From the NCBI GenBank assembly GCA_951406725.2, contig OX597836.1, positions 7,502,001-7,566,000 on the forward strand: a DNA stretch of 64,000 nt, read 5' to 3'. The stretch's first letter is position 1; each line of letters begins with the position of its first letter. Position numbers and translations under genes: made by a program. The notes under the pieces are model-generated. The model searched no databases and was not told the DNA's origin. It worked only from the letters and a program-made list of their open reading frames with translations. The stretch comes from Octopus vulgaris. Lineage: Eukaryota. Below, piece by piece: positions 4,374 through 64,000 of the stretch.

Positions 4374-5290
4374 AATTGTTTATTAACCTGTTTATGTGTG
4401 TGTGTGTGTGTGTGTGTGAGATAGTTTATTAATCCATGTGCGTGAACGTGTGCGAATATGTGTGTATATGAATGTCATGTGTGAGTGTGTTTCTCTGGGT
4501 GTGTTTGAATGTTGTGTGGGAATGTGTAGGTGAAAATGTTTATTAATAATGCCTGTGTGTGTGTGGGTGTATGTGTGTGTGTGTGTGTGTGTGTGTTTTG
4601 TGGAATTGTTTATTAATCTCTGTATGTGTATATGAGACTTAGTTTATTGATCCATGTGTTAATATGAATATGGTGTGTGAGTGTGTTTCTGTGGGTGTGT
4701 GTTTGAATGTTGTGTAGGAATGTGTAGGTGTCATTACTTATTGATGCCTATGTGGGTGTGTGGGTGTGGAATTGCTTATTGCTCTATGTATGCGTGTGTG
4801 AGATACTTTATTGATCCATGTGCATGAACGTGTGTGAATATGTGTGTGTATGAATGTCGTGTGTGAGTGTGTTTCTCTGGGTGTGCTTGAATGTTGTGTG
4901 GGTGTGTAGGTGAAAATGTTTATTAATAATGCCTCTGTGTGTGTGTGTGTGGAATTGTTTATTAATCTGTATATGTGTGTCTGAGACATTGTTTCTTAAC
5001 CTATATGTATGAATGCATAATGGTGTGTGAATACATGTGTGTGTGAATGTCGTGTGTGAGCACGTGTCTGTGAGTATGTTTGTATGTGTATGATTATATG
5101 GGAACGTATGTGTGTGTGTGTGTGTGTCGTTATGTATTAATGTTCACATGTGTGTATATGTGTTATTGCTTATGCACGATTGTACTTGGATGTGACTGCG
5201 TATGTGTGTGTGTAGGTGATTGATTATTTATACATGCGTATATGTGTGTGTGTGTGTATGCGTATATGTGTGCATATGTGCATGAATCTA
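4330..5290. repeat. Diverged compound (GT)n-rich minisatellite
   Basis: Recurring 'gtggaattgtttattaa' and 'gaatgttgtgt..gtgtaggtgaaaatg' blocks between (GT)n runs. Confidence 0.75.
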
Positions 5291-5382: not shown

Positions 5383-5782
5383 TAACAACAACAACATCAA
5401 CAACAACAGCCCAACTGCAGCAGCAACAACAACAACACAACAACAACAACACAACTGCAGCAACAACAACACCAACAACAGCAGCAACAACAACACAACT
5501 GCAGCAACAACAACAACAACACAACTGCAACAACAACAACACCAACACAACTGCAGCAACAACAACAACAACACAACTGCAGCAACAACAACAATAACAC
5601 AACTGCAGCAACAACAACAGCACAACTGCAACAACAACAACAACAACAACAACAGCACAACTGCAGCAGCAACAACAACACATCTGCAGCAACAACAACA
5701 ACACAACTGCAGCAACGACAACAGCAACAACAACATCAGAAGCAGCGACAGCATCAGTAGAAGCAGCAAGAGTAGCATCTGA
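5383..5782. repeat. (CAA)n/(CAG)n compound repeat
   Basis: Repeated 'acacaactgcagcaacaacaac' units. Confidence 0.9.
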
Positions 5783-7413
5783 AGCATTGGGAATAATTTT
5801 CTCATTGAGGAATTAATCAATATTGAAATGTCTTGACATGAATATTTTATCATCCCAAATATCCGGTTCACTTCATTCTGATGTAACAGTCCTGTTTAAA
5901 CCAATGGAAGGGTTGAGAAACTTGTTCTAAATTTACATTGTCTTCCAAAATATTACACCATTCTCCATCTTTAAACCAATGAAGGGCTTAGAAACTGGAT
6001 CTGTATCTATATTCGTGAATATTCCTCTGTTCCACATCTTTAGCCCTTTAGCATTTAATCTAGCCGTATCTGGCCCAAATATTCCTACCTGTTTTATGTC
6101 CAAACTAACCTGATCCTACCTCTCACACCTCCCTTACAATGTCATTCTAAAAATAAACAATTACATCATTGAAATCTTTCAGGTATGAAATAATGCAGGA
6201 TTCATTCAAAGTGATTTAAATAAATATGCATTACATTTGTCAGAGCAATCTGACTGCTAAAAGGGTGAAAACAAAAAGAACCCACAAACTGAGCCTGTAT
6301 TTATAATCCCACATGTTTCTCTGTCCTACATCTTAAAACCAAGATGGGCCCAGACACTGAGCCTGTATTTATAATCCCAAATGTTAGCCCATCCTGTATC
6401 TTTACAGCCCAGAAACCAATTTTATATTTATTGTGATATTTTTTTTTCTGTTTTCTCATGTCCTATATAAACCGAGTCTTGTGACTCGGAGGGAGAACTT
6501 TCTAGGTGCATTCCTGTGGTCATTCATGACTGAGGTGGGTCTTTAGCTTCATAAATGAATATTTGTGTTTGTGTGTGAAAGCACATGGTATAGTGATTAG
6601 AGCCTCAGGCTCACAATCATGAGGTAGTGAGTTCAATTCCCAGACCGGGCTGTGTGTTGTGTTCTTGAACAAGACACTTTATTTCACATTGCTCCAGTTC
6701 TGTAGAAACGACTTGTGACATCACTAGTGCCAAGATGTATCAGCTCCCTTTGCCTTTCCCTTGGATGGCATTAGTGGCACGGAGAGGGGAGGCTGGTGAG
6801 CATGGGTGATTGTTGGTCATCCATAAACAGCCTTGAGAGCACTTGTGCTTTGGAGGGGGGGATTTCTAGCTGCAATCCCATGGTCATTCATGATTGAAGG
6901 GGGTCTTTACTCTTGTATCTGAAGGTGCATGGCTCAGTGGTTAGAGTATCAGGCTCACAATCCTGTGGTAGTGAGTTTGATTCCTGGAACAGGCTGTGTG
7001 TTGTGTTCTTGAGCAAGACACTTTATTTCATGTACCTGTAATTCAATGGACCAGCTTTGTCACATTCAGTGTGTCACACTGAATCTCCTTGAGAGCAACA
7101 TTAAAAGTACATGTGTCTATGGAATACTCAACCACTTGCATATTAATTTCATGAGCAGGCTGTTCCATTGACAGAATCAACAGGAACACTTGTCGTTGTC
7201 AATGATGGAGTGCCAGTAAGGGAGAGAGAGAGTGTGTGTGTGTGTGTGTGTGTGTATGCGTGTGTAAGCATATGTGTGTGTTTTAGAATGTCCATAAATG
7301 TATGATTCTATGAAAACATGTATTTGTATATGTATCCCACCCTTTCCTATTTGATCCCTTAAATTGTAAAATGATAGATATAACATTTAGGCATACAGAA
7401 ATATAAGTCCTTA

Positions 7414-7900
7414 AGGCGACGAGCTGGCAGAAACATTAGCACGCCGGGCAAAATGTCTAGCGGTATTTCGTCTGTCTTTACGTTCTGAGTTCAAATTCCG
7501 CCGAGGTCGACTTTGACTTTCATCTTTTTGGGGTCGATAAATTAAGTACCAGTTACACGCTGGGGTCGATGTAATCGACTTAATCCGTTTGTCTGTCCTT
7601 GTTTGTCCCCTCTTTGTTTATCCCCTTGTGGGCAATAAAGAAATAAGAAATGTTAGCATGGCAGGCAAAATGCTGAGAGAAGGTGGCGAGCTGGCAGAAA
7701 CGTTAGTGCACCGGGTGAAATGCTTAGCGGTATTTCATCTGCCGTTACGTTCTGAGTTCAAATTTCGCCGAGGTTGACTTTGCCTTTCATCCTTTCGGAT
7801 GTACCAGTTATGCACTGAGGTCGAACTAATCAACTTAATCCCTTTGTCTGTCCTTATTTGTCCCCTCTATCTTTAGTCCCTTGTGGGCAATAAAGAAATA
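7414..7900 (+). mobile_element. Dimer of SINE family B ('ggcgagctggcagaaacgttagc' head) with 17-bp TSD
   Basis: agaaatataagtcctta at 7397-7413 and 7901-7917 flanks two head-to-tail copies. Confidence 0.85.
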
Positions 7901-8271
7901 AGAAATATAAGTCCTTATGCTGTCAAGGGTTTGACCCTTTTAATACAAAACTGAGTAAAACCACTCCTGTTTCTGTCAAACAAACTTCCTATTTTAAACT
8001 GATCTAAATTTAAATCTTCCAGCAAAAACAAAAAACAAAAACAAAATATCATGTTAATTCATGTTTCAAACCCCAGATTAATAAGAATGACAAAGTCGAT
8101 TTATGAGATTTTTCGTAATTTTAAAAAAATTAATCGAAAGAAAAGTAATTCGAAGGTGGTTTCACAGAAATCCGGCAAGAAAAGGGTTAAAGATATAGGA
8201 TGGCACAATATTTATGAAACAATGTAAAAAGAGAAAGCAGTTTCTTGGTCCCCTTTCATTGGTTTAAACAG

Positions 8272-8350
8272 AATTGTTACATTGGAGCCAACTGAAGCGG
8301 ATATTTGGATTGATAAAATATTCATGTCAAGACATTTGAATATTGATTAA
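8272..8350 (+). CDS. Candidate alternative terminal exon (phase 2: IVTLEPTEADIWIDKIFMSRHLNID*)
   Basis: Acceptor ccccttt...aaacag|A ATT. Whole exon is complementary to 5783-5924. Phase 1 is also open for 21 codons. Confidence 0.5.
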
Positions 8351-8527
8351 TTTTTTAACGAGAAAATTATTCCCAATGCTGTTGTTGTTTCTGCTGTTGC
8401 TGCAGTTTCTTCTCATTAAGACTTATAAACTGGTTCTCTATTTATTGTCTGCTAAACGTTGCTTCATCCTCATTACTTTGGATTCTACTAACAATAACAC
8501 AACAACAGCATCTTTTAATTATCTATC

Positions 8528-15166: not shown

Positions 15167-15167
<1 letters not shown>

Positions 15168-15950
15168 CTGTCTGGCAACCGTGTCGGTGGCACGTAAAAG
15201 CACCATCCGTTCGCGTCCGTTGCCAGCCTCGGCTGGCCCCCGTGCCGGTGACACGTAAAAGCACCGTCCGTTCGTGGCCGGTTGCCAGCTCTGTCTGGCC
15301 CCGTGTCGGTGTAAAAGCACCATCCGTCCGTGTCCGTTGCCAGCCTCGTACACGTAAAAGCACCGTCCGTTCCGTTTGCCAACTCTGTCTGGCAACCGTG
15401 TCGGTGGCACGTAAAAGCACCATCCGTTCGCGTCCGTTGCCAGCCTCGCCTGGCCCCGTGCCGGTGACACGTAAAAGCACCGTCCGTTCGTGGCCGGTTG
15501 CCAGCTCTGTCTGGCCGTGTCGGTGGCACGTAAAAGCACCGTCCGTTCGTGTCCGTTGCCAGCATCGCCTGGCCCCGTGTCGGTGGCACGTAAAAGCACC
15601 ATCCGTTCGTGTCCGTTGCCAGCATCGCCTGGCCCCGTGCCGGTGGCACGTAAAAGCACCATCCGTTCGTGTCCGTTGCCAGCATCGCCTGGCCCCGTGC
15701 CGGTGACACGTAAAAGCACCATCCGTTCGTGGCCGTTCGCCAGCTCTGTCTGGCACCTGTGCAGGTGGCACGTAAAAAACACCCACTAAACTCGCGGAGT
15801 GGTTGGCGTTAGGAAGGGCATCCAGCCGTAGAAACACTGCCAGATCTGACTGGGCCTGACGAAGCCTTCCAGCTTCACAGACCCCAGTTGACCCGTCCAA
15901 CCCATGCTAGCATGGAAAACGGACGCTAAACGATGATGATGATGATGATA
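15167..15950 (+). mobile_element. Family D retro-repeat with ~11 internal ~60-bp tandem units and (GAT)n tail
   Basis: Unit cggtggcacgtaaaagcaccatccgttcgtg...; the tail 'aggaagggcatccag...catggaaa..gacg.taaa.gatgatgat' recurs near 24900, 29830, 40460, 43180, 44480 and 47460. Confidence 0.85.
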
Positions 15951-19623: not shown

Positions 19624-19830
19624 AATTATTTTTAGTATTATATATAGTCACTATGAGGATATCTAGACCTCTTATAGAGATATTTTTATCCAAGAGTCAC
19701 TGGTTTAATATATTGTATTTTGAAGAGATATTTCTTCAATGAATATATTACGAAATATCATAAAATATCAAATATTATTATTAAGTTTAAAAATGGAGAG
19801 CTTCAATAGATATGAATGAATGAATGAATT

Positions 19831-20750
19831 GATTATCATCATTACCTACGATTGTTTCATTCCACATCCAATTTAGATTACAAAACATATACCGTGAAAT
19901 AGGGTTACTTTGAACACCGGGGTAATTTTGAACAAGATATAATATTTTGTTTCCTCTTTATATCACAGCTGAAGGTCGTATAGTAATGCAATTTAAAAAC
20001 AATTTACCTTCAGCTGAATGGGCTAATTCATTTTTAAAGCGAAACAAAACCCCAATTAGCATCACACCTGTACCAAAATATCAAAAGATTTAAGTGCTAC
20101 AGAAGTATCCTTGTACATCCAGCACTTAAAAGCAACTCTTACAGTTGATGGAAAACTTATCCCTCCAAATAACATATTCAACTTTTGAACATAAGTAAAA
20201 AAAACATTACTGTTCAAAGTAACCCCAAATCAGGGGTTACTTTGAACAGCGACAATTATATATATAAAAAAGTAATCAAATATTAACTGCAACTTATTTT
20301 TATTTCATATATCAGTTTATCTATTTAGTCCCTCAAACAATATCAAATTTAGTTAAGATTGAAAAAAAAGTTATGAAATTATTGTAATAAGAAGTCTAAA
20401 ACTGTTCAAAGTATTTATACCGTTTCACGGTATAAATGTATAAATTTGAATTTCAAAATACCTTGGGCTGAAAATCTTCAAGGCATAAAAAAATACAATA
20501 CAGAAATTACATTTTCATCAGTTGAAATATTCCAATAGAACCTATCGGAGTATTTTCGATCGGTTGAAATACTGTAATAGAGTCTGTTGGAGTATTTCAA
20601 CCGATCAAAATGTAATTTCTGTATCGTCCTTTTTCATGCCCTGAAGATTTTCCACCCAAGGTATTTTGAAAAGCAGACTTATATATTTGTATATGTTCTG
20701 TAATTTAAATTGGATCTGAAATGAAACAATTGTAGGTAAGGATGATAATT
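19831..20750. mobile_element. Palindromic fold-back element interrupted by a pogo/Tc1-like MITE (19892-20430)
   Basis: Outer arms 19831-19891 + 20433-20545 are complementary to 20583-20750. Inner element has TIR ccgtgaaa...ctttgaaca and a TA TSD. Confidence 0.8.
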
Positions 20751-20788
20751 AATTAATAAATTAATTTGTATCCATTGGATCTCTCTAT

Positions 20789-20839
<51 letters not shown>

Positions 20840-29034: not shown

Positions 29035-29450
29035 TCATTCTATAATTCTGTAAGGTTGTCCCTCAGGACATCCCAAGACTGTTTCCACACATTTCCCCCA
29101 TTCATCTCGATCTTCCATAATGGTCCTCAGCTTCTGTACCCCTTCCATACCCGTATCCTCCAGCAAGTTGTCGAGAGAGGTCGTCTTCCTCCTTCCTCTC
29201 TTGGTTCTCCCTTCCATTGGTTGCCAGAGCACTAGCTTGTTAGCAATTTCATCGATATGTCTGATGCGGTGTCCAGCTAGCCTCATCCTTCTATGCTGAA
29301 TCTTCAATGTTACTTTTGATAGTCCCTGTATAAGTCGGCATTTGTTGCATGACTCTTCCAGGAGACATTGATTGCCATTCTAAGCATCCTTGTATAACAA
29401 CCATCCAACTGCTCCTTCAATGCTTTAGAGGGTGTCCCTGTTTCAGCCCC
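29035..29450 (-). pseudogene. RTE/RTEX LINE C-terminal fragment
   Basis: 'RRMRLAGH..RH...LVLWQP..G...RGR...DNLLEDTG...MEDRDEW' preceded by 'LDGCYTRMLRMA' matches typical RTE ORF C-termini. Confidence 0.85.
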
Positions 29451-31500
29451 TCTTTAATCCTTTCATTCTATAATTCTTTCACATTATACTTACTTGTTTT
29501 CTCATTTCAGTCATTCTCTTTTTGTTGAACTGCTTAATTATGGGGACATAAACAAACCAATGCTGGTTGTCAAAAGATGAAAGACAAACACATATACACA
29601 CAAATCAAAATCAAATCAAGTTCGAAATGGAAATGGAAATTGTAGTTGTGGCCAATGCCAGTTCCGCCTGACTGGCATCCGTGCTGGTGGCACATAATAA
29701 GCACCATTCAAGCATGGGTAGATGCCAGTGCCACTTGACTGGCTCCCCATGCTGGTGGCACGTAAAAAGCACCATCTGAATGTGGTAATCTCCTGTGCCG
29801 GTGGCATGTAAAAAGCACTCACTGCACTCTTGGAGTGGTTGGCATTAAGAAGGGCATCCAGGTGTAGAAATCTTGCCAGATCAGACTGGAGCCTGGTGCA
29901 GCCTACTAGCTTGCCAATCTCCAGTCAAACCATCCAACCCATGCTAGCATGGAAAACGGACATTAAATAATGATGATGATATGTATATCACAAATCCACT
30001 ATAACATAATATTTAGTTATTTTACCCAATGAATTTTGTAAACCCCAATATTTCAGATAAACTGAGACTTATAACAAAGTAAAACCTTGATCAAGGCCCA
30101 AGGAAACATACAAACCTTGTTTACCCAAATATAAAAATAAGAGATTCTATAAACAGTTAAATTAGACCTAGTCTTATATTAGACAATAGATGTACCATCA
30201 AGGCTAGGGTTTCAATTGGGGATAACACCAATATGCTGAAGAACACAAAAATACACAAAAAACAAACTAAAAATGGAATGCATAAACAACAATATAAACA
30301 TCACAAAAAAAAAGACTATTTAATCTAAATAGACAAAAGCATGCCATCATCAGCTACTGTATTGGAAATCGTTATGGTTTTGACTCCAAGCAGTCCCATT
30401 CAATCAAACGGTTTATTAAAACATCAAAAAAAATATTTAAATGCTGCTTGGTAATTACTAGGCATAACAAAAACAAAGACAAAAAACACCCTTGTGATAG
30501 AATTGCGGCTCCACAGCATATTAGACAACATATTTTAATGTTTGTTTTTATGTTATAATAAAAGCATATGTACATCAAACTGAAGGATTTCTCAATACTT
30601 TTGGAGGAGTACAAATTTTATCATTCTTTAACAAGAATATTACTGACTGTGACTTCGAAGTTTCAGACAGCTAAGCCATCATTGGACTGTGGTATATTTG
30701 AGTTCATCTTGGATTTATATAATATCTGTTAAGTTAAAATTTTCTGGGGCAAGCTGAGTAATAACTGTAGGGGAGGCTGTGATGAACAAAGGCTATGTAA
30801 AGCAGAGATGAACTCAAATCTCTCATAATCCGGTGTTGGCTCAGCTGGCCAAAACTTCAAAGTCATTGCCAAAACTATTCTTGTAAAAGAATAAACGCGC
30901 ACACACACACACACACACATATCATCATCATCATCATCATCGTTTAATGTCCGTTTTCCATGCTGGCACGGGTTGGACGATTTGACTGGGGTCTGAGAAG
31001 CCAGGAGGCTGCACCAGGCTTCATTCTGCTCTGGCAGTGTTTCTACAGCTCAATGCCCTTCCTAACGCTAACCACTCTGAGAGTGTAGTGGGTGCTTTTT
31101 ACGTGCCACCAGCAGAGGGGCCAGAGGGGGCTGGCATCGACCACGATCAGTATAGAAAACATTTAGTAGAGTGCCAATGATTTGAACTTACACTCCAATG
31201 TCTTTACTGCAGACCAAGTTAGCAGGGAAATCCAAGTCAGCAGATATGGAGACAATAATTTAAATAAACAGATAAAGACCTTGGGTTTAAATGTACAAAA
31301 TATATATAAACATAAATGCATGTAAAAAGAGAAGGTAGATTAAAATTTTCACATGATTAACAATCAAGTATAAATATATATATATATATTTATATATTTA
31401 TATAGAGCAAACTTATTCAGATTACTTAGACTCAATGGCATTGTAACACACTCTCTCCTCTCTAATTCTTTGAGTCTATGAAATCTGAGTAAGCGCTATT

Positions 31501-46391: not shown

Positions 46392-47614
46392 GGCTTCTTT
46401 CAGTTTCCATTTACCAAATCCACTCAGAAGACTTTGGTTGGCCTAAGGCTATATTAAAAGACACTTGCCCAAGGTGCCAAGCAGTGGGACTGAACCCAGA
46501 ACCATGTGGCTGGGAAACAAGCTTCTTACCACACAGCCACTCACTAACAATTCTGCCCGCTCACCAACTTTCTCATGAATATTATTGTCATCATAAAGAG
46601 ATTGGGCTGGCAGAATCATGAATGCCCCAGACAAAATGCTTAGCAATCGTTTCTTTCGGCACCTTACGTGCTGTGCTTAAATCTGACTGAGACCAACTTT
46701 CCCTATTGTCCTTTCGAGTTCAATAAAAATAAAGTACCTGTCATGTACTGAGGTTTCAATGTAATCGATTATCCCCCTCCTCTATAATTACTGGCCTTGT
46801 GCCAAAATTTGAAATCATTATTATTATCACCTGTCAATAGCATTATCATCATCATTACCATAGCCTCTATGTGATTGCTTGACTTGCTAGAAATAGTGGT
46901 TATATCACCCTCAAATCACTCTCTACTATCTTGAAATAGTCATACAGTTAAACATCGTTTTATGTACATATGTCTCCCTATAATTTCTTTATAATTATGT
47001 ATATTTATGCAAACATGGCTGCGTGGTTAAGTAGTTCACTTCCCAACCACATGGTTTTGAGTTCAGTCCCACATGTGTAGCACCTCGGTAAGTGTCTTCT
47101 ACTTTAGCCCTCGGCTGACCAAAGCCTTGTGAATGACAAGAAGCATCCATAAGGTGTAAGTGCTTTCGCTGTTCACAGCTTTTCAAACACACATGTTCTG
47201 GGATAATCTGTAGAGAGGAAGTTGTTTTAGTAATCGTGTTGGATATTTCCAGTTCAGTTTTGGATTTAGATTTCTTATGATGATGATGATATTCTTCTTT
47301 TGCCTCTCATAGTCGATCATTTTCTTATAAAATAAATATATATATTGACTTGCTAGAAATAGTGGTTATATCACCCTCAAATCACTCTCTACTATCTTGA
47401 AATAGTCATACAGTTAAACATCGTTTTATGTACATATGTCTCCCTATAATTTCTTATAGTGGTTGGCGTTAGGAAGGGCATCCAGCCGTAGAAACATTGC
47501 CAGATCAGACTGGGCCTGGTGCAGCCTTCTGGCTTCCCAGACCCCAGTTGAACCGTCCAACCCATGCTAGCATGGAAAGCGGACGCTAAACGATGATGAT
47601 GATGATGATGATGA

Positions 47615-61302: not shown

Positions 61303-61914
61303 TGTCACATATGACTATTATCCGTGTCATACTTTAACTTTTGTTTTTTGGTGGAATTGGAAGACCTGTCCTGATTTTGAAAACTTTAAGCTTATTGGCC
61401 CCCAGCCCTTCCACCCCTAGTTCCACAATACAAAGTTCCTGTTTACAGTGATATATGGCGTTGAGTAAAAAATTTTGCAATATTTTGGTAATTTATTTGT
61501 TTTATTTCTCAAGTTACAACAAAAGCAGCTGAGCATTCAAAGTGGAGGCCATAATATGGCACCATCTGAAGCCACCTTTCTGCCAGTTCTTGGATCTCTT
61601 GCTGATACCAGTTCTTGTTCTTTGAGATGACGAATTCCTTCATTGAAGCTTCCTGTTTCTTTATTAGCCACAAGGGCCTAAACATAGAGTGGGACAATAC
61701 ATACATACATGAATGTGTGTATGTGTAAATATATATACACGATGTGCTTCTTTTTAGTTTCCATCTATTAAATCCACTCACAAAGCATTGGATGGCCTGA
61801 AGTTATTGTAGAAGACATTTACCAAAAGTTCCACAGTGAGACTGAACCTGGAACCAAGCAGTTGAGAAGCAAGCTTCTTATCACTCAGCCATGCCTGCAC
61901 CTACATATTCTTAA

Positions 61915-62541
61915 CATTCTTCTTAGCATTCATCTGTGCAATTCTTAGCATTCCACCAAACACTTCTTAGCATTCGCCTGTGCAGTTCTTAGCATTCCAC
62001 CAAACACTTCTTAGCATTCGTCTGTGCAATTCTTACCATTCGTCTGTGCAATTCTTAGCATTCAACCAAACACTTCTTAGCATTCATCTGTGCAATTCTT
62101 AGCATTCCACCAAACACTTCTTAGCATTCGTCTGTGCAATTCTTAGCATTCCACCAAACACTTCTTAGCATTCGTCTGTGCAGTTCTTAGAATTCCACCA
62201 AACACTTCTTAGCATTTGTCTGTGCAATTCTTAGCATTCCACCAAACACTTCTTAGCATTTGTCTGTGCAATTCTTAGCATTCCACCAAACACTTCTTAG
62301 CATTCGTCTGTGCAATTCTTAGCCTTCCACCAAACACTTCTTAGCATTCGTCTGTGCAATTCTTAGCATTCCACCAAACACTTCTTAGCATTCATCTGTG
62401 CAATTCTTAGCATTCCACCAAACAGTTCTTAGCATTCGTCTGTGCAATTCTTAGCATTCCACCAAACACTTCTTAGCATTCGTCTGTGCAGTTCTTAGCA
62501 TTCCACCAAACACTTCTTAGCATTCGTCTGTGCAATTCTTA
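61915..62541. repeat. 44-bp dimeric minisatellite, ~14 units
   Basis: ttcttagcattc+gtctgtgcaa alternates with ttcttagcattc+caccaaacac. Confidence 0.95.
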
Positions 62542-64000
62542 ACATTTTTCTCTTACAAAATATTTACCATTCACAATATCCTTCTGCAAATGTGTCCCTT
62601 CTTCCCCCACTCCACACCACCACACCACATAATCCAAAATTCCTATTTAATCCCAAATGATTTTACCAAAACAACTATATCCAACATTACTTCTTTCTTT
62701 TATTCTAGAAAATTCTCTTTTCCAAAAAGATTTATATTTTGTTAATAAAATATAAATTATAGACAATAATGAAGTTGAAATATGTAAATATTGACAAAAT
62801 AGTCTGGTGGGAGGGGGGGGGTAAAGATAAAAAAAAACACAAAGAGCAAAACCCCAATAATATCTTTGATGTTTGTTGAAGAAATTTCCGCAAAAATATT
62901 TCATAAGTCTTTTGTTCTCTGGAGATAACTGATTAAGTTCTATTTCACTTGCTTCCCTACCATCAAAGTTCTTTGATCTGTAATTTTATTATCACAAAAT
63001 ATGTTTGTGAGTTGTAATTTGTTTGTGATTTTGTCCATATTGGTGGGGAGGTGGGGAGTGGGGGGGTGAGGGTGAGGGTCAGTGTGTTTTGTGCTGTTCT
63101 CTTGACTGATGTGAGTGTGTGTGTGTGTGTGTGTGTGCATGAGTATTAAAATATACGTAATATCATTTCTTACACACATACACACACACACATATATATA
63201 TACATGTATACATACCCATGGATATATATCTCATAAATGCATATTCTAAAGATATATATGAGCATACATGTATTTTATATTTGGCTGTCTGTGTGTGTAT
63301 TTCATTAATATTTAGCAAAAGCAACAGACTGACTTATGCAACATATACACATATATGTGTGTGTGTGTGTGTGTGTGTGCGTGTGTATGTATATATATAA
63401 TGTACATATATATGTGTGTGTCGTGGCATTCCGTCGGTTATGACGACGAGGGTTCCAGTTGAGCCGATCAAGGGAACAGTCAGCTCGTGATATTAACGTG
63501 CAAGTGGCTGAGTACTCCACAGATACGTGTACCCTTAACGTAGTTCTCGGAGAGATTCAGCATGACACAAAGTGTGACAAGGCTGGCCCCTATGAAATAC
63601 AGGTACAACAGAAACATGAAGAAAGAGTAAGTGAAAGTTGTGGTGAAAGAGTACAGCCCCACCCCCCAGCTTGTCAGCCCTGGTCAAACTGTCCAACCCA
63701 TGCCAGCATGGACAACAGACATTAAATGATGATGATATTATGACCAGATATCCTTCCTGTTGCCAGTCATGTTAGTTGGCTTTTATGACATAAATGATAT
63801 GATATAGGTAATATATATATATATATGTCGTATTTTAAGATGTATAAGGAGCTCCCTATTTTGCAGGGGGCTTAAAATTTGGAAAAAAGGTTTTGTTAGG
63901 GATTATAATACTATCCATGTGTAAGAAACTCCCATATTTTTTAGCCTAATTTTTGACAAAAAAAATGGTTCCTTATACATGTTAGAATATGGTATATATA

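What the first reader, a model, noticed from the sequence alone, without database searches (positions are those of the whole stretch)
5783..8380. ~140-bp long-range inverted copy of a candidate exon, with G-U-biased differences
Seen: 5783-5924 is the reverse complement of 8239-8380, 2.3 kb away. It covers the pyrimidine tract, AG, whole coding stretch and stop. Many differences are G-U on the + strand (ttgaggaattaa/ttaattttttaa; ttctgatgtaacagt/attgttacattggag; caatggaaggg/ccctttcattg). Weaker complementarity continues across the CAA/CAG expansion to ~5335 vs 8430. Inference: an editing-complementary or splice-masking element born by inverted duplication. Transcription-linked mutation asymmetry could also give a G-U bias.
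Basis: partly seen in the sequence, partly recalled or inferred. Interest (0 to 1): 0.8.

Follow-up and report, generated by a model that had tools for sequence, protein, structure and literature searches.

The report
Conserved long-range fold-back in octopus intron
Two mirror-image DNA stretches 2.3 kb apart, found only here in an octopus genome and changing about a third as fast as their neighbours between two species, likely pair as RNA inside a long untranslated intron; the proposed exon and RNA editing were not seen.

Summary
The inverted pair is real and longer than reported: 5783-5977 against 8184-8380, 81% identical, with a gap-free 130-bp core (113 Watson-Crick, 8 G-U, 4 A-C, 5 other). 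It occurs only twice in a 2.8-Gb octopus genome, so it is not a high-copy transposon. The G-U excess is not significant (8:4 in the core, 9:8 overall). The 'exon' has no support: no homologue, no donor or poly(A) signal, no coding signature, no reads in two RNA runs of a related species. Editing could not be tested at that depth. New result: both core arms differ from that species at no more than 6 of 324 positions (1.9%), against 45 of 691 (6.5%) in adjoining DNA (P=0.001). Strand skew and a splice acceptor just before the ATG suggest that the pair lies in a very long 5'-UTR intron of an arrestin-domain gene 73 kb downstream. Best reading (0.5): an old local inverted duplication kept as a long-range pre-mRNA duplex that covers a cryptic acceptor. 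Rivals: duplicated enhancer (0.2), neutral relic (0.2). No covariation or structure evidence yet.

The parts
5783..5912 (+). Arm A core: 5' strand of the predicted duplex; gap-free complement of 8251-8380
   Evidence: 113 WC, 8 G-U, 4 A-C, 5 other of 130; organism E contig covers 5749-5912 with 5 differences in 164 (table 8)
8251..8380 (+). Arm B core: 3' strand of the predicted duplex
   Evidence: Organism E contig covers 8242-8515 with 5 differences, 4 of them listed at 8415-8485, so at most 1 in 8242-8414 (tables 3 and 8)
5913..5977 (+). Arm A outer part; one copy of a ~70-nt unit (U), reversed; diverging at about the neutral rate
   Evidence: 17 mismatches in 64 columns against 8184-8250; organism E piece 5916-6073 has 15 differences in 158
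8184..8250 (+). Arm B outer part; forward copy of unit U (U runs to about 8266)
8253..8271 (+). Cryptic 3' splice-acceptor-like site (pyrimidine tract, CAG); 8257-8271 pairs perfectly with 5892-5906
   Evidence: Sequence, pairing; at least 101 sites on the + strand of the window are as pyrimidine-rich; use not shown
8272..8350 (+).
   Evidence: No Pfam match, no homologue (weak test), 4 synonymous to 9 non-synonymous codons between the arms in this frame, depth 0 at 8256-8348 in X23 and X24
5969..6043 (-). Second tandem copy of unit U on the A side
   Evidence: z 13 against the first copy, z 10 against 8187-8266; 7 listed differences from organism E in 5980-6029
6270..6408 (-). Third and fourth tandem copies of unit U (6270-6340, 6334-6408)
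   Evidence: single copy in the genome; organism E depth only 1.3 at 6303-6395
8405..8482 (-). Reversed copy of unit U that makes 8189-8479 an imperfect palindrome
   Evidence: z 13 self-complementarity; z 6 against 8187-8266; single copy; not paired to U in the global + strand fold
5385..5782 (+). CAA/GCA microsatellite expansion flanking arm A; its last ~20 nt match 8381-8401
6040..6270 (.). Later insertion: multi-copy repeat with short terminal inverted repeats at a TTAA-like site (piggyBac-like MITE; label recalled)
   Evidence: 7 other copies in 264 kb; very high cross-mapping depth
6472..7906 (.). Loop filler: SINE-like repeats (6472-7215, 7411-7906), a GT/GA microsatellite and a 75-nt unique remnant (7336-7410)
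7933..8190 (.). Second MITE-like insertion, ending at the TTAA that starts arm B
   Evidence: Terminal inverted ends in the sequence; partial copies nearby; depth 806 at 7977-8069 in X10

Best explanation
An old local inverted duplication left two single-copy, mirror-image arms 2.2 kb apart whose 130-bp cores diverge slowly between two octopus species, most likely because they pair as a long RNA duplex in a pre-mRNA, probably the long 5'-UTR intron of the downstream arrestin-domain gene. Shown: the complementarity, the copy number of two, the slow divergence in one species comparison, later transposon insertions in the loop, and a splice acceptor 17 nt before the gene's ATG. Inferred: transcription of the + strand across the pair (strand skew, CpG depletion); pairing in the cell (predicted: 170 of the 195 arm-A bases pair with arm B in the minimum-energy fold of 5740-8520); and the job of the duplex, most likely to hide the cryptic acceptor at 8270-8271 and loop out 2.2 kb of repeats. 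Such a duplex would be an ADAR substrate, but editing was not observed.
For: Two copies only, by DNA, protein and 27-nt pattern searches, while a neighbouring inverted pair gave 40 matches at 79-86% in the same search. Organism E: at most 6 differences in 324 core positions against 45 in 691 adjoining positions, Fisher P=0.001; arm A, which was not used to pick the runs, 5 of 164 against 15 of 158 in its own flank, P=0.02. 52% of 27 sampled 31-mers of 8184-8500 are held by 11 runs of organism E from 3 studies, against about 10% expected at 7% divergence. The core arms are also closer to each other (13% mismatch) than the outer arms (27%), P=0.03. T>A skew on + across C23:7,477,001-7,584,000 (0.062; 17 of 20 non-zero 5-kb blocks, P=0.003; TG runs 71, CA runs 29), reversed over the minus-strand Rac-like gene. 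Acceptor before the ATG. Conserved intronic complementary pairs are enriched on cryptic and inactive splice sites and in editing sites in human genes (PMC8052449, abstract and passages).
Against: No compensatory change was seen; two close species give no power. G-U bias not significant. Almost no RNA reads on either arm in X23 and X24 (mean depth 0-0.3 on the core bins apart from 0.7-1.9 at 8349-8441, which includes a simple repeat), so transcription is not shown; X20 has contigs over both arms and the loop but may be DNA. The skew is absent in the gene's own coding introns (-0.013), and no upstream exon was located. Conservation rests on 5 contig pieces from one run, with 40 of 426 difference rows shown. 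Conservation of two complementary copies is equally expected of a duplicated enhancer (stated as a general caveat in PMC8052449, discussion passage). Four other inverted pairs with gaps under 1.3 kb lie in the 264 kb examined, so inverted pairs as such are common here.
Confidence: 0.5

Rival explanations
1. A duplicated DNA enhancer (conserved non-coding element) of the arrestin-domain gene or a neighbour: both copies are kept for transcription-factor binding, and the inverted orientation is incidental.
For: Same conservation signal; no RNA seen on the arms; both cores hold TGATTAAT, one of 14 TGATTNAT sites in the window, near TGACA and CCAAT words (reading these as Pbx-Hox, Meis and NF-Y motifs is recalled, not tested). 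PMC8052449 (discussion passage) says such cases can be indistinguishable from RNA pairing by conservation alone.
Against: A redundant copy 2.3 kb away would be expected to decay or degenerate in patches (inference); short AT-rich motifs are common by chance; the skew points to transcription through the region.
Confidence: 0.2
2. A functionless relic: a decayed fold-back element or local inversion-duplication of a ~70-nt minisatellite region; the slow divergence is chance or a local low mutation rate.
For: The arms sit in a degenerate array of six U units and arm B is itself an imperfect palindrome, like an old MITE; short inverted pairs are common here; no RNA, no G-U bias; only one species comparison from a partial output.
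Against: Both arms are slow, including arm A, which was not used to select runs; the drop is from about 6.5-9.5% to about 2% across a sharp boundary; the core-versus-outer contrast between the arms agrees. Gene conversion cannot explain it, since nearly all 17 core mismatches between the arms must be shared with organism E (at most 6 differences in all).
Confidence: 0.2
3. One reading: a real coding last exon at 8272-8350 whose upstream inverted copy is an editing-complementary sequence for recoding.
For: Acceptor-like site, 26 open codons and a stop lie inside the duplex; arm B is the more conserved arm (at most 1 of 173); cephalopods edit heavily (PMC9068888, abstract and passages).
Against: No upstream coding exon of any + strand gene was found in the window or the 100 kb before it (ORF and composition scans only); all coding exons of the arrestin-domain gene lie downstream; no homologue; no donor within 240 nt and no AATAAA or ATTAAA within 1 kb; depth 0 in two RNA runs.
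Confidence: 0.05
4. Precursor of small RNAs (long hairpin RNA giving endo-siRNAs, or a microRNA from one arm).
For: A 130-bp duplex with both arms conserved is the shape of a Drosophila hairpin RNA (recalled); poly(A) RNA-seq would miss its products.
Against: [quoted passage not shown]
Confidence: 0.05

Closest known systems
[quoted passage not shown] 2021, PMC8052449; abstract and passages seen)
   Same: Two conserved non-coding segments, kilobases apart, complementary on one strand; overlap with a cryptic acceptor; predicted very stable duplex.
   Different: Octopus; 130 bp and born by one inverted duplication; conservation seen in two close species only; no covariation, probing or editing data; host transcript inferred.
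Editing-complementary sequences of ADAR recoding targets (GluA2 Q/R, Drosophila para and synaptotagmin; recalled, not read here)
   Same: Long imperfect duplex with G-U pairs and mismatches between distant segments of a pre-mRNA.
   Different: No coding exon is shown as the partner and no edited site was seen.
Inverted-repeat editing substrates from transposons (inverted Alu pairs, recalled; repeat-directed ubiquitous editing in squid, PMC9068888, abstract and passages seen)
   Same: Inverted copies within about 2 kb in an intron would form an ADAR substrate.
   Different: These arms are single-copy and slowly evolving, not members of a repeat family.
Docking site-selector pairs of Dscam1 and ATE1 (PMC12962786, PMC7797038; search listing and start of abstract only)
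   Same: One forward unit U (8187-8266) has five possible reversed partners: four upstream, one downstream.
   Different: The U copies are not conserved against organism E and flank no alternative exons; only the core is constrained.
MITE or foldback element with long terminal inverted repeats (recalled)
   Same: Long inverted arms with internal ~70-nt sub-repeats.
   Different: Two copies in the genome, against 40 scored matches for a true neighbouring MITE end; no transposase remnant noticed in the loop.

Membership tests
PCCR (conserved long-range intronic pair) | Long, near-perfect complementarity at a distance | tested here: met
   121 of 130 pairs WC or G-U; -177 kcal/mol
PCCR (conserved long-range intronic pair) | Both regions conserved across species | tested here: met
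   At most 6 of 324 against 45 of 691, P=0.001, in one other species label
PCCR (conserved long-range intronic pair) | Both regions in one pre-mRNA (intron) | tested here: inconclusive
   Skew, CpG depletion and an acceptor before the ATG point to a + strand 5'-UTR intron; no spanning RNA
PCCR (conserved long-range intronic pair) | Compensatory substitutions or experimental contact | not testable with these tools
   No distant cephalopod genome on hand; one mismatch is a G-C pair in organism E (5874), polarity unknown
Editing-complementary sequence | Partner is a spliced exon | tested here: not met
   Depth 0 at 8256-8348 in two RNA runs of unknown tissue (about 6% of each read); no homologue, donor or poly(A) signal
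Editing-complementary sequence | A-to-G changes in RNA within the duplex | tested here: inconclusive
   Too few reads; X20 contigs at 5865-6107 and 8126-8280 show 1 and 0 differences, but contigs drop rare variants
High-copy transposon arms (MITE, foldback, SINE pair) | Many dispersed copies | tested here: not met
   2 of 2 candidates; pattern 1 forward and 1 reverse; control 40 matches
microRNA or hairpin-RNA gene | Local hairpin or Rfam family on an arm | tested here: not met
microRNA or hairpin-RNA gene | Small-RNA reads with Dicer signature | not testable with these tools
   No small-RNA run was listed
Duplicated enhancer | Open chromatin or reporter activity | not testable with these tools
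   No chromatin data on hand

The most novel reading that the evidence does not exclude
A single-copy 130-bp RNA duplex, made by inverted duplication and kept for several times the age of the species split, works as an ADAR-sensitive switch in the 100-kb leader intron of an octopus alpha-arrestin gene: while paired it buries a cryptic acceptor, and editing or a change of partner among the tandem U copies frees the acceptor and diverts transcripts before the start codon, linking gene output to editing level (neural tissue, cold).
Probability: 0.1. Interest if true: 0.8.

Novelty: new member of a known kind. Interest (0 to 1): 0.45.

Why it matters
Editing outside coding sequence in squid is reported to fall mostly on repeats (PMC9068888, passages). 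A single-copy, constrained long-range duplex would be a different kind of substrate and a short, well-bounded test case for whether cephalopods keep non-coding RNA structure under selection to steer splicing. It also shows a route: inverted duplication first, transposon filling of the loop later. If it is an enhancer pair or a relic, it is an ordinary conserved non-coding element or nothing. None of the 6 literature searches (listings only) showed a paper on this locus or on conserved long-range intronic pairs in cephalopods; that is a shallow check, and supplements were not opened.

Tried and rejected
No RNA holder was listed among indexed runs; this is no evidence on expression. Pfam scan of 32 chosen ORFs of the window: none over a curated cut-off. 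Homologue search with the 40-aa frame among longer proteins: none, a weak test. Six-frame comparison of the arms: synonymous to non-synonymous codons 2:10, 4:9, 2:12, 1:12, 3:9, 2:12, with stops in every frame. Rfam: 19 weak hits, all on microsatellites or beyond 8520, none on the arms. Extension of the fold-back into the transposon-free inner loop: z 1.0, 75 of 500 shuffles as good, rejected. Extension across the CAA array: z 1.9, rejected. Local hairpin of 8180-8485: z -0.9 on +, -2.9 on -; it does not form in the global + fold. Gene conversion as the cause of similarity: rejected, since the inter-arm mismatches are shared between species. Recursive splice site: the AG is not followed by GT. 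Docking-selector model: the U copies are not conserved. A composition scan for exons (amino-acid frequencies from recall) found only the arrestin-domain and Rac-like genes and transposon fragments. Earlier findings: nothing in 3 look-ups. The 2017 Cell paper on conserved flanks of cephalopod editing sites is not held and was not read. X10 pieces 3, 4 and 5 (SINE matches, probably not orthologous) were left out of the divergence baseline.

Full report
Observation. BLASTN of the two regions gives one strong plus/minus match, 5783-5977 against 8380-8184, 160 of 198 columns, E 3e-47. The core 5783-5912 / 8251-8380 has no gap: 113 Watson-Crick pairs, 8 G-U, 4 A-C and 5 other mismatches if the + strand is the RNA. 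The outer part has 17 mismatches in 64 columns. A short GCT/GTT tract carries the match on to about 5762 / 8401. The quoted G-U patches are real, but 8 of 12 transitions is not significant (two-sided P=0.39). The whole repeat has 9 G-U to 8 A-C. A rough null from repeat copies in this stretch (change classes of X10) expects about 54% G-U anyway (P=0.28).

Setting. The window is C23:7,502,001-7,566,000 of a 2.8-Gb genome. A neighbouring exon is 100% identical to an Octopus arrestin-domain protein, so this is an octopus genome. No coding exon other than transposon fragments was recognised in the window (these scans are insensitive to short exons). All seven coding exons of the arrestin-domain gene lie on + at C23:7,583,924-7,604,486, from 73.5 kb after arm B. 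A long pyrimidine tract and CAG end 17 nt before its ATG, so an upstream untranslated exon probably exists. Unique DNA from 7,477,001 to 7,584,000 has T>A on + (skew 0.062; 17 of 20 non-zero 5-kb blocks; 71 TG runs to 29 CA runs), the minus-strand Rac-like gene shows the reverse (-0.037), and most 5-kb blocks here are CpG-depleted. The pair therefore probably lies in a roughly 100-kb + strand leader intron. Against this, the gene's coding introns show no skew (-0.013), and the first exon was not found.

Copy number. Searches of the genome with arm B, arm A, the 40-aa frame and a 27-nt pattern with up to 3 mismatches each return just the two arms. The same search with one arm of a nearby inverted pair (19790-19892) returns 40 scored matches of 150 candidates, at 79-86% apart from itself. 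The arms are thus not a high-copy transposon. Short inverted pairs are otherwise common: four more with gaps under 1.3 kb in 264 kb, of which I tested one.

Anatomy and history. The loop is mostly later insertions: a MITE-like repeat at 6040-6270, SINE-like repeats at 6472-7215 and 7411-7906, and a second MITE-like repeat at 7933-8190. The outer arms are copies of a ~70-nt unit U, present six times: four reversed copies in tandem on the A side (5894-6408, split by the first MITE), one forward copy at 8187-8266, and one reversed copy at 8405-8482. The last makes 8189-8479 an imperfect palindrome that folds better on the - strand (z -2.9) than on + (z -0.9). In the minimum-energy fold of 5740-8520 on +, 170 of the 195 arm-A bases pair with arm B and with nothing else. 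If the outer arms decayed neutrally (corrected distance 0.33), the duplication is about three to four times older than the split from organism E (inference).

Conservation. Eleven DNA runs labelled organism E, from three studies, hold 52% of 27 sampled 31-mers of 8184-8500. One of them (X10) was laid on 5745-8515 at 85% likeness. Five of the eight X10 pieces shown anchor in unique or junction DNA: 5749-5912 with 5 differences in 164; 5916-6073 with 15 in 158; 7883-8009 with 7 in 129; 7981-8268 with 19 in 290; and 8242-8515 with 5 in 274 plus a 12-letter gap, four of the five at 8415-8485. The other three pieces are SINE matches and were dropped. The cores carry at most 6 differences in 324 positions (1.9%) against 45 in 691 (6.5%), Fisher P=0.001; arm A alone against its own flank gives P=0.02. 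Arm A was not used to choose the runs. Caveats: one species label, one run, 40 of 426 difference rows and 16 pieces shown. The only listed change inside the A core (5874) turns a C-C mismatch into G-C in organism E; that is also what an ancestral state would look like. Of three listed changes in the outer A arm, two improve pairing and one breaks it (organism E's arm-B letters there were not shown). No compensatory pair was seen.

Expression and editing. Two raw RNA runs of organism E (about 1.9 and 1.8 billion letters read, tissue unknown) give mean depth 0 at 8256-8348 and 0-0.2 across arm A; 0.7-1.9 at 8349-8441 may be simple-repeat cross-mapping. No joint into the candidate exon is among the 15 joints shown (1682 were not shown). 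Run X20 (own species label, RNA only by guess) has low-depth contigs at 5865-6107, 7900-8087 and 8126-8280 with 1, 3 and 0 differences, which fits unspliced RNA or DNA. So the stretch is not a well-used exon in those samples, and editing is untested. The frame has no homologue or Pfam match, no coding signature between the copies, no donor before 8595 and no poly(A) signal within 1 kb; at least 101 equally pyrimidine-rich YAG sites lie on the + strand of the window.

Mechanism. The simplest account of two slowly evolving, complementary, single-copy arms in a probably transcribed region is pairing in the pre-mRNA (0.5). Fifteen perfect pairs (5892-5906 with 8257-8271) cover the tract and AG of the cryptic acceptor, which matches the enrichment of human conserved pairs on cryptic and inactive splice sites (PMC8052449, abstract and passages). 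The duplex would be an ADAR substrate. A duplicated enhancer (0.2) predicts the same conservation, a limit that the same paper states. A relic (0.2) needs the slow divergence to be chance. A recoding exon with its editing partner (0.05) lacks a gene, and a small-RNA hairpin (0.05) meets a survey that found no endo-siRNA pathway in molluscs (PMC12479628, abstract and passages).

Verdict. A real, single-copy, probably constrained long-range inverted pair: a new member of a known kind if it pairs as RNA. Interest 0.45.

Noticed in passing
L019 7880-8037; L021 16-8486 (C23:7,583,924-7,604,486, +): Seven-coding-exon arrestin-domain (ARRDC-like) gene with a long low-complexity last exon; a strong acceptor lies 17 nt before the ATG, and strand skew suggests a leader intron of about 100 kb.
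   Followed up: partly
L024 8343-8678 and L026 2640-2756 (minus strand): Exons of a Rac-like small GTPase gene (name recalled from the translation), convergent with the arrestin-domain gene; strongly CpG-depleted, with reversed skew.
   Followed up: no
window 19790-19892 and 20689-20791: Inverted pair 0.8 kb apart that is the end of a multi-copy MITE-like element (40 scored matches); used as a positive control.
   Followed up: partly
window about 30623-30892: Near-perfect local hairpin (99-nt arms, 76%, 73-nt gap), copy number not checked.
   Followed up: no
window 15167-15777: CpG-rich tandem array of ~47-nt units at the head of a SINE-like repeat, standing out from the CpG-depleted surroundings; probably a recent insertion.
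   Followed up: no
window 46879-46989 and 47345-47455: 111-bp direct repeat at 100% identity, 356 nt apart: a very recent duplication or an assembly artefact.
   Followed up: no
window 29038-29453 (minus strand): Broken reading frames that look like the C-terminal part of a LINE reverse transcriptase (resemblance recalled).
   Followed up: no
L022 4896-5621 (minus strand): Broken Tc1/mariner-like transposase remnant (resemblance recalled).
   Followed up: no
L010 7200-8160: Degenerate tandem array of ~200-250-nt units, and CpG-rich patches at 4500-5000 and 6500-7000, near where the strand skew turns; a candidate region for the first exon.
   Followed up: no
window 61832-62681: Minisatellite of 22/44-nt period.
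   Followed up: no
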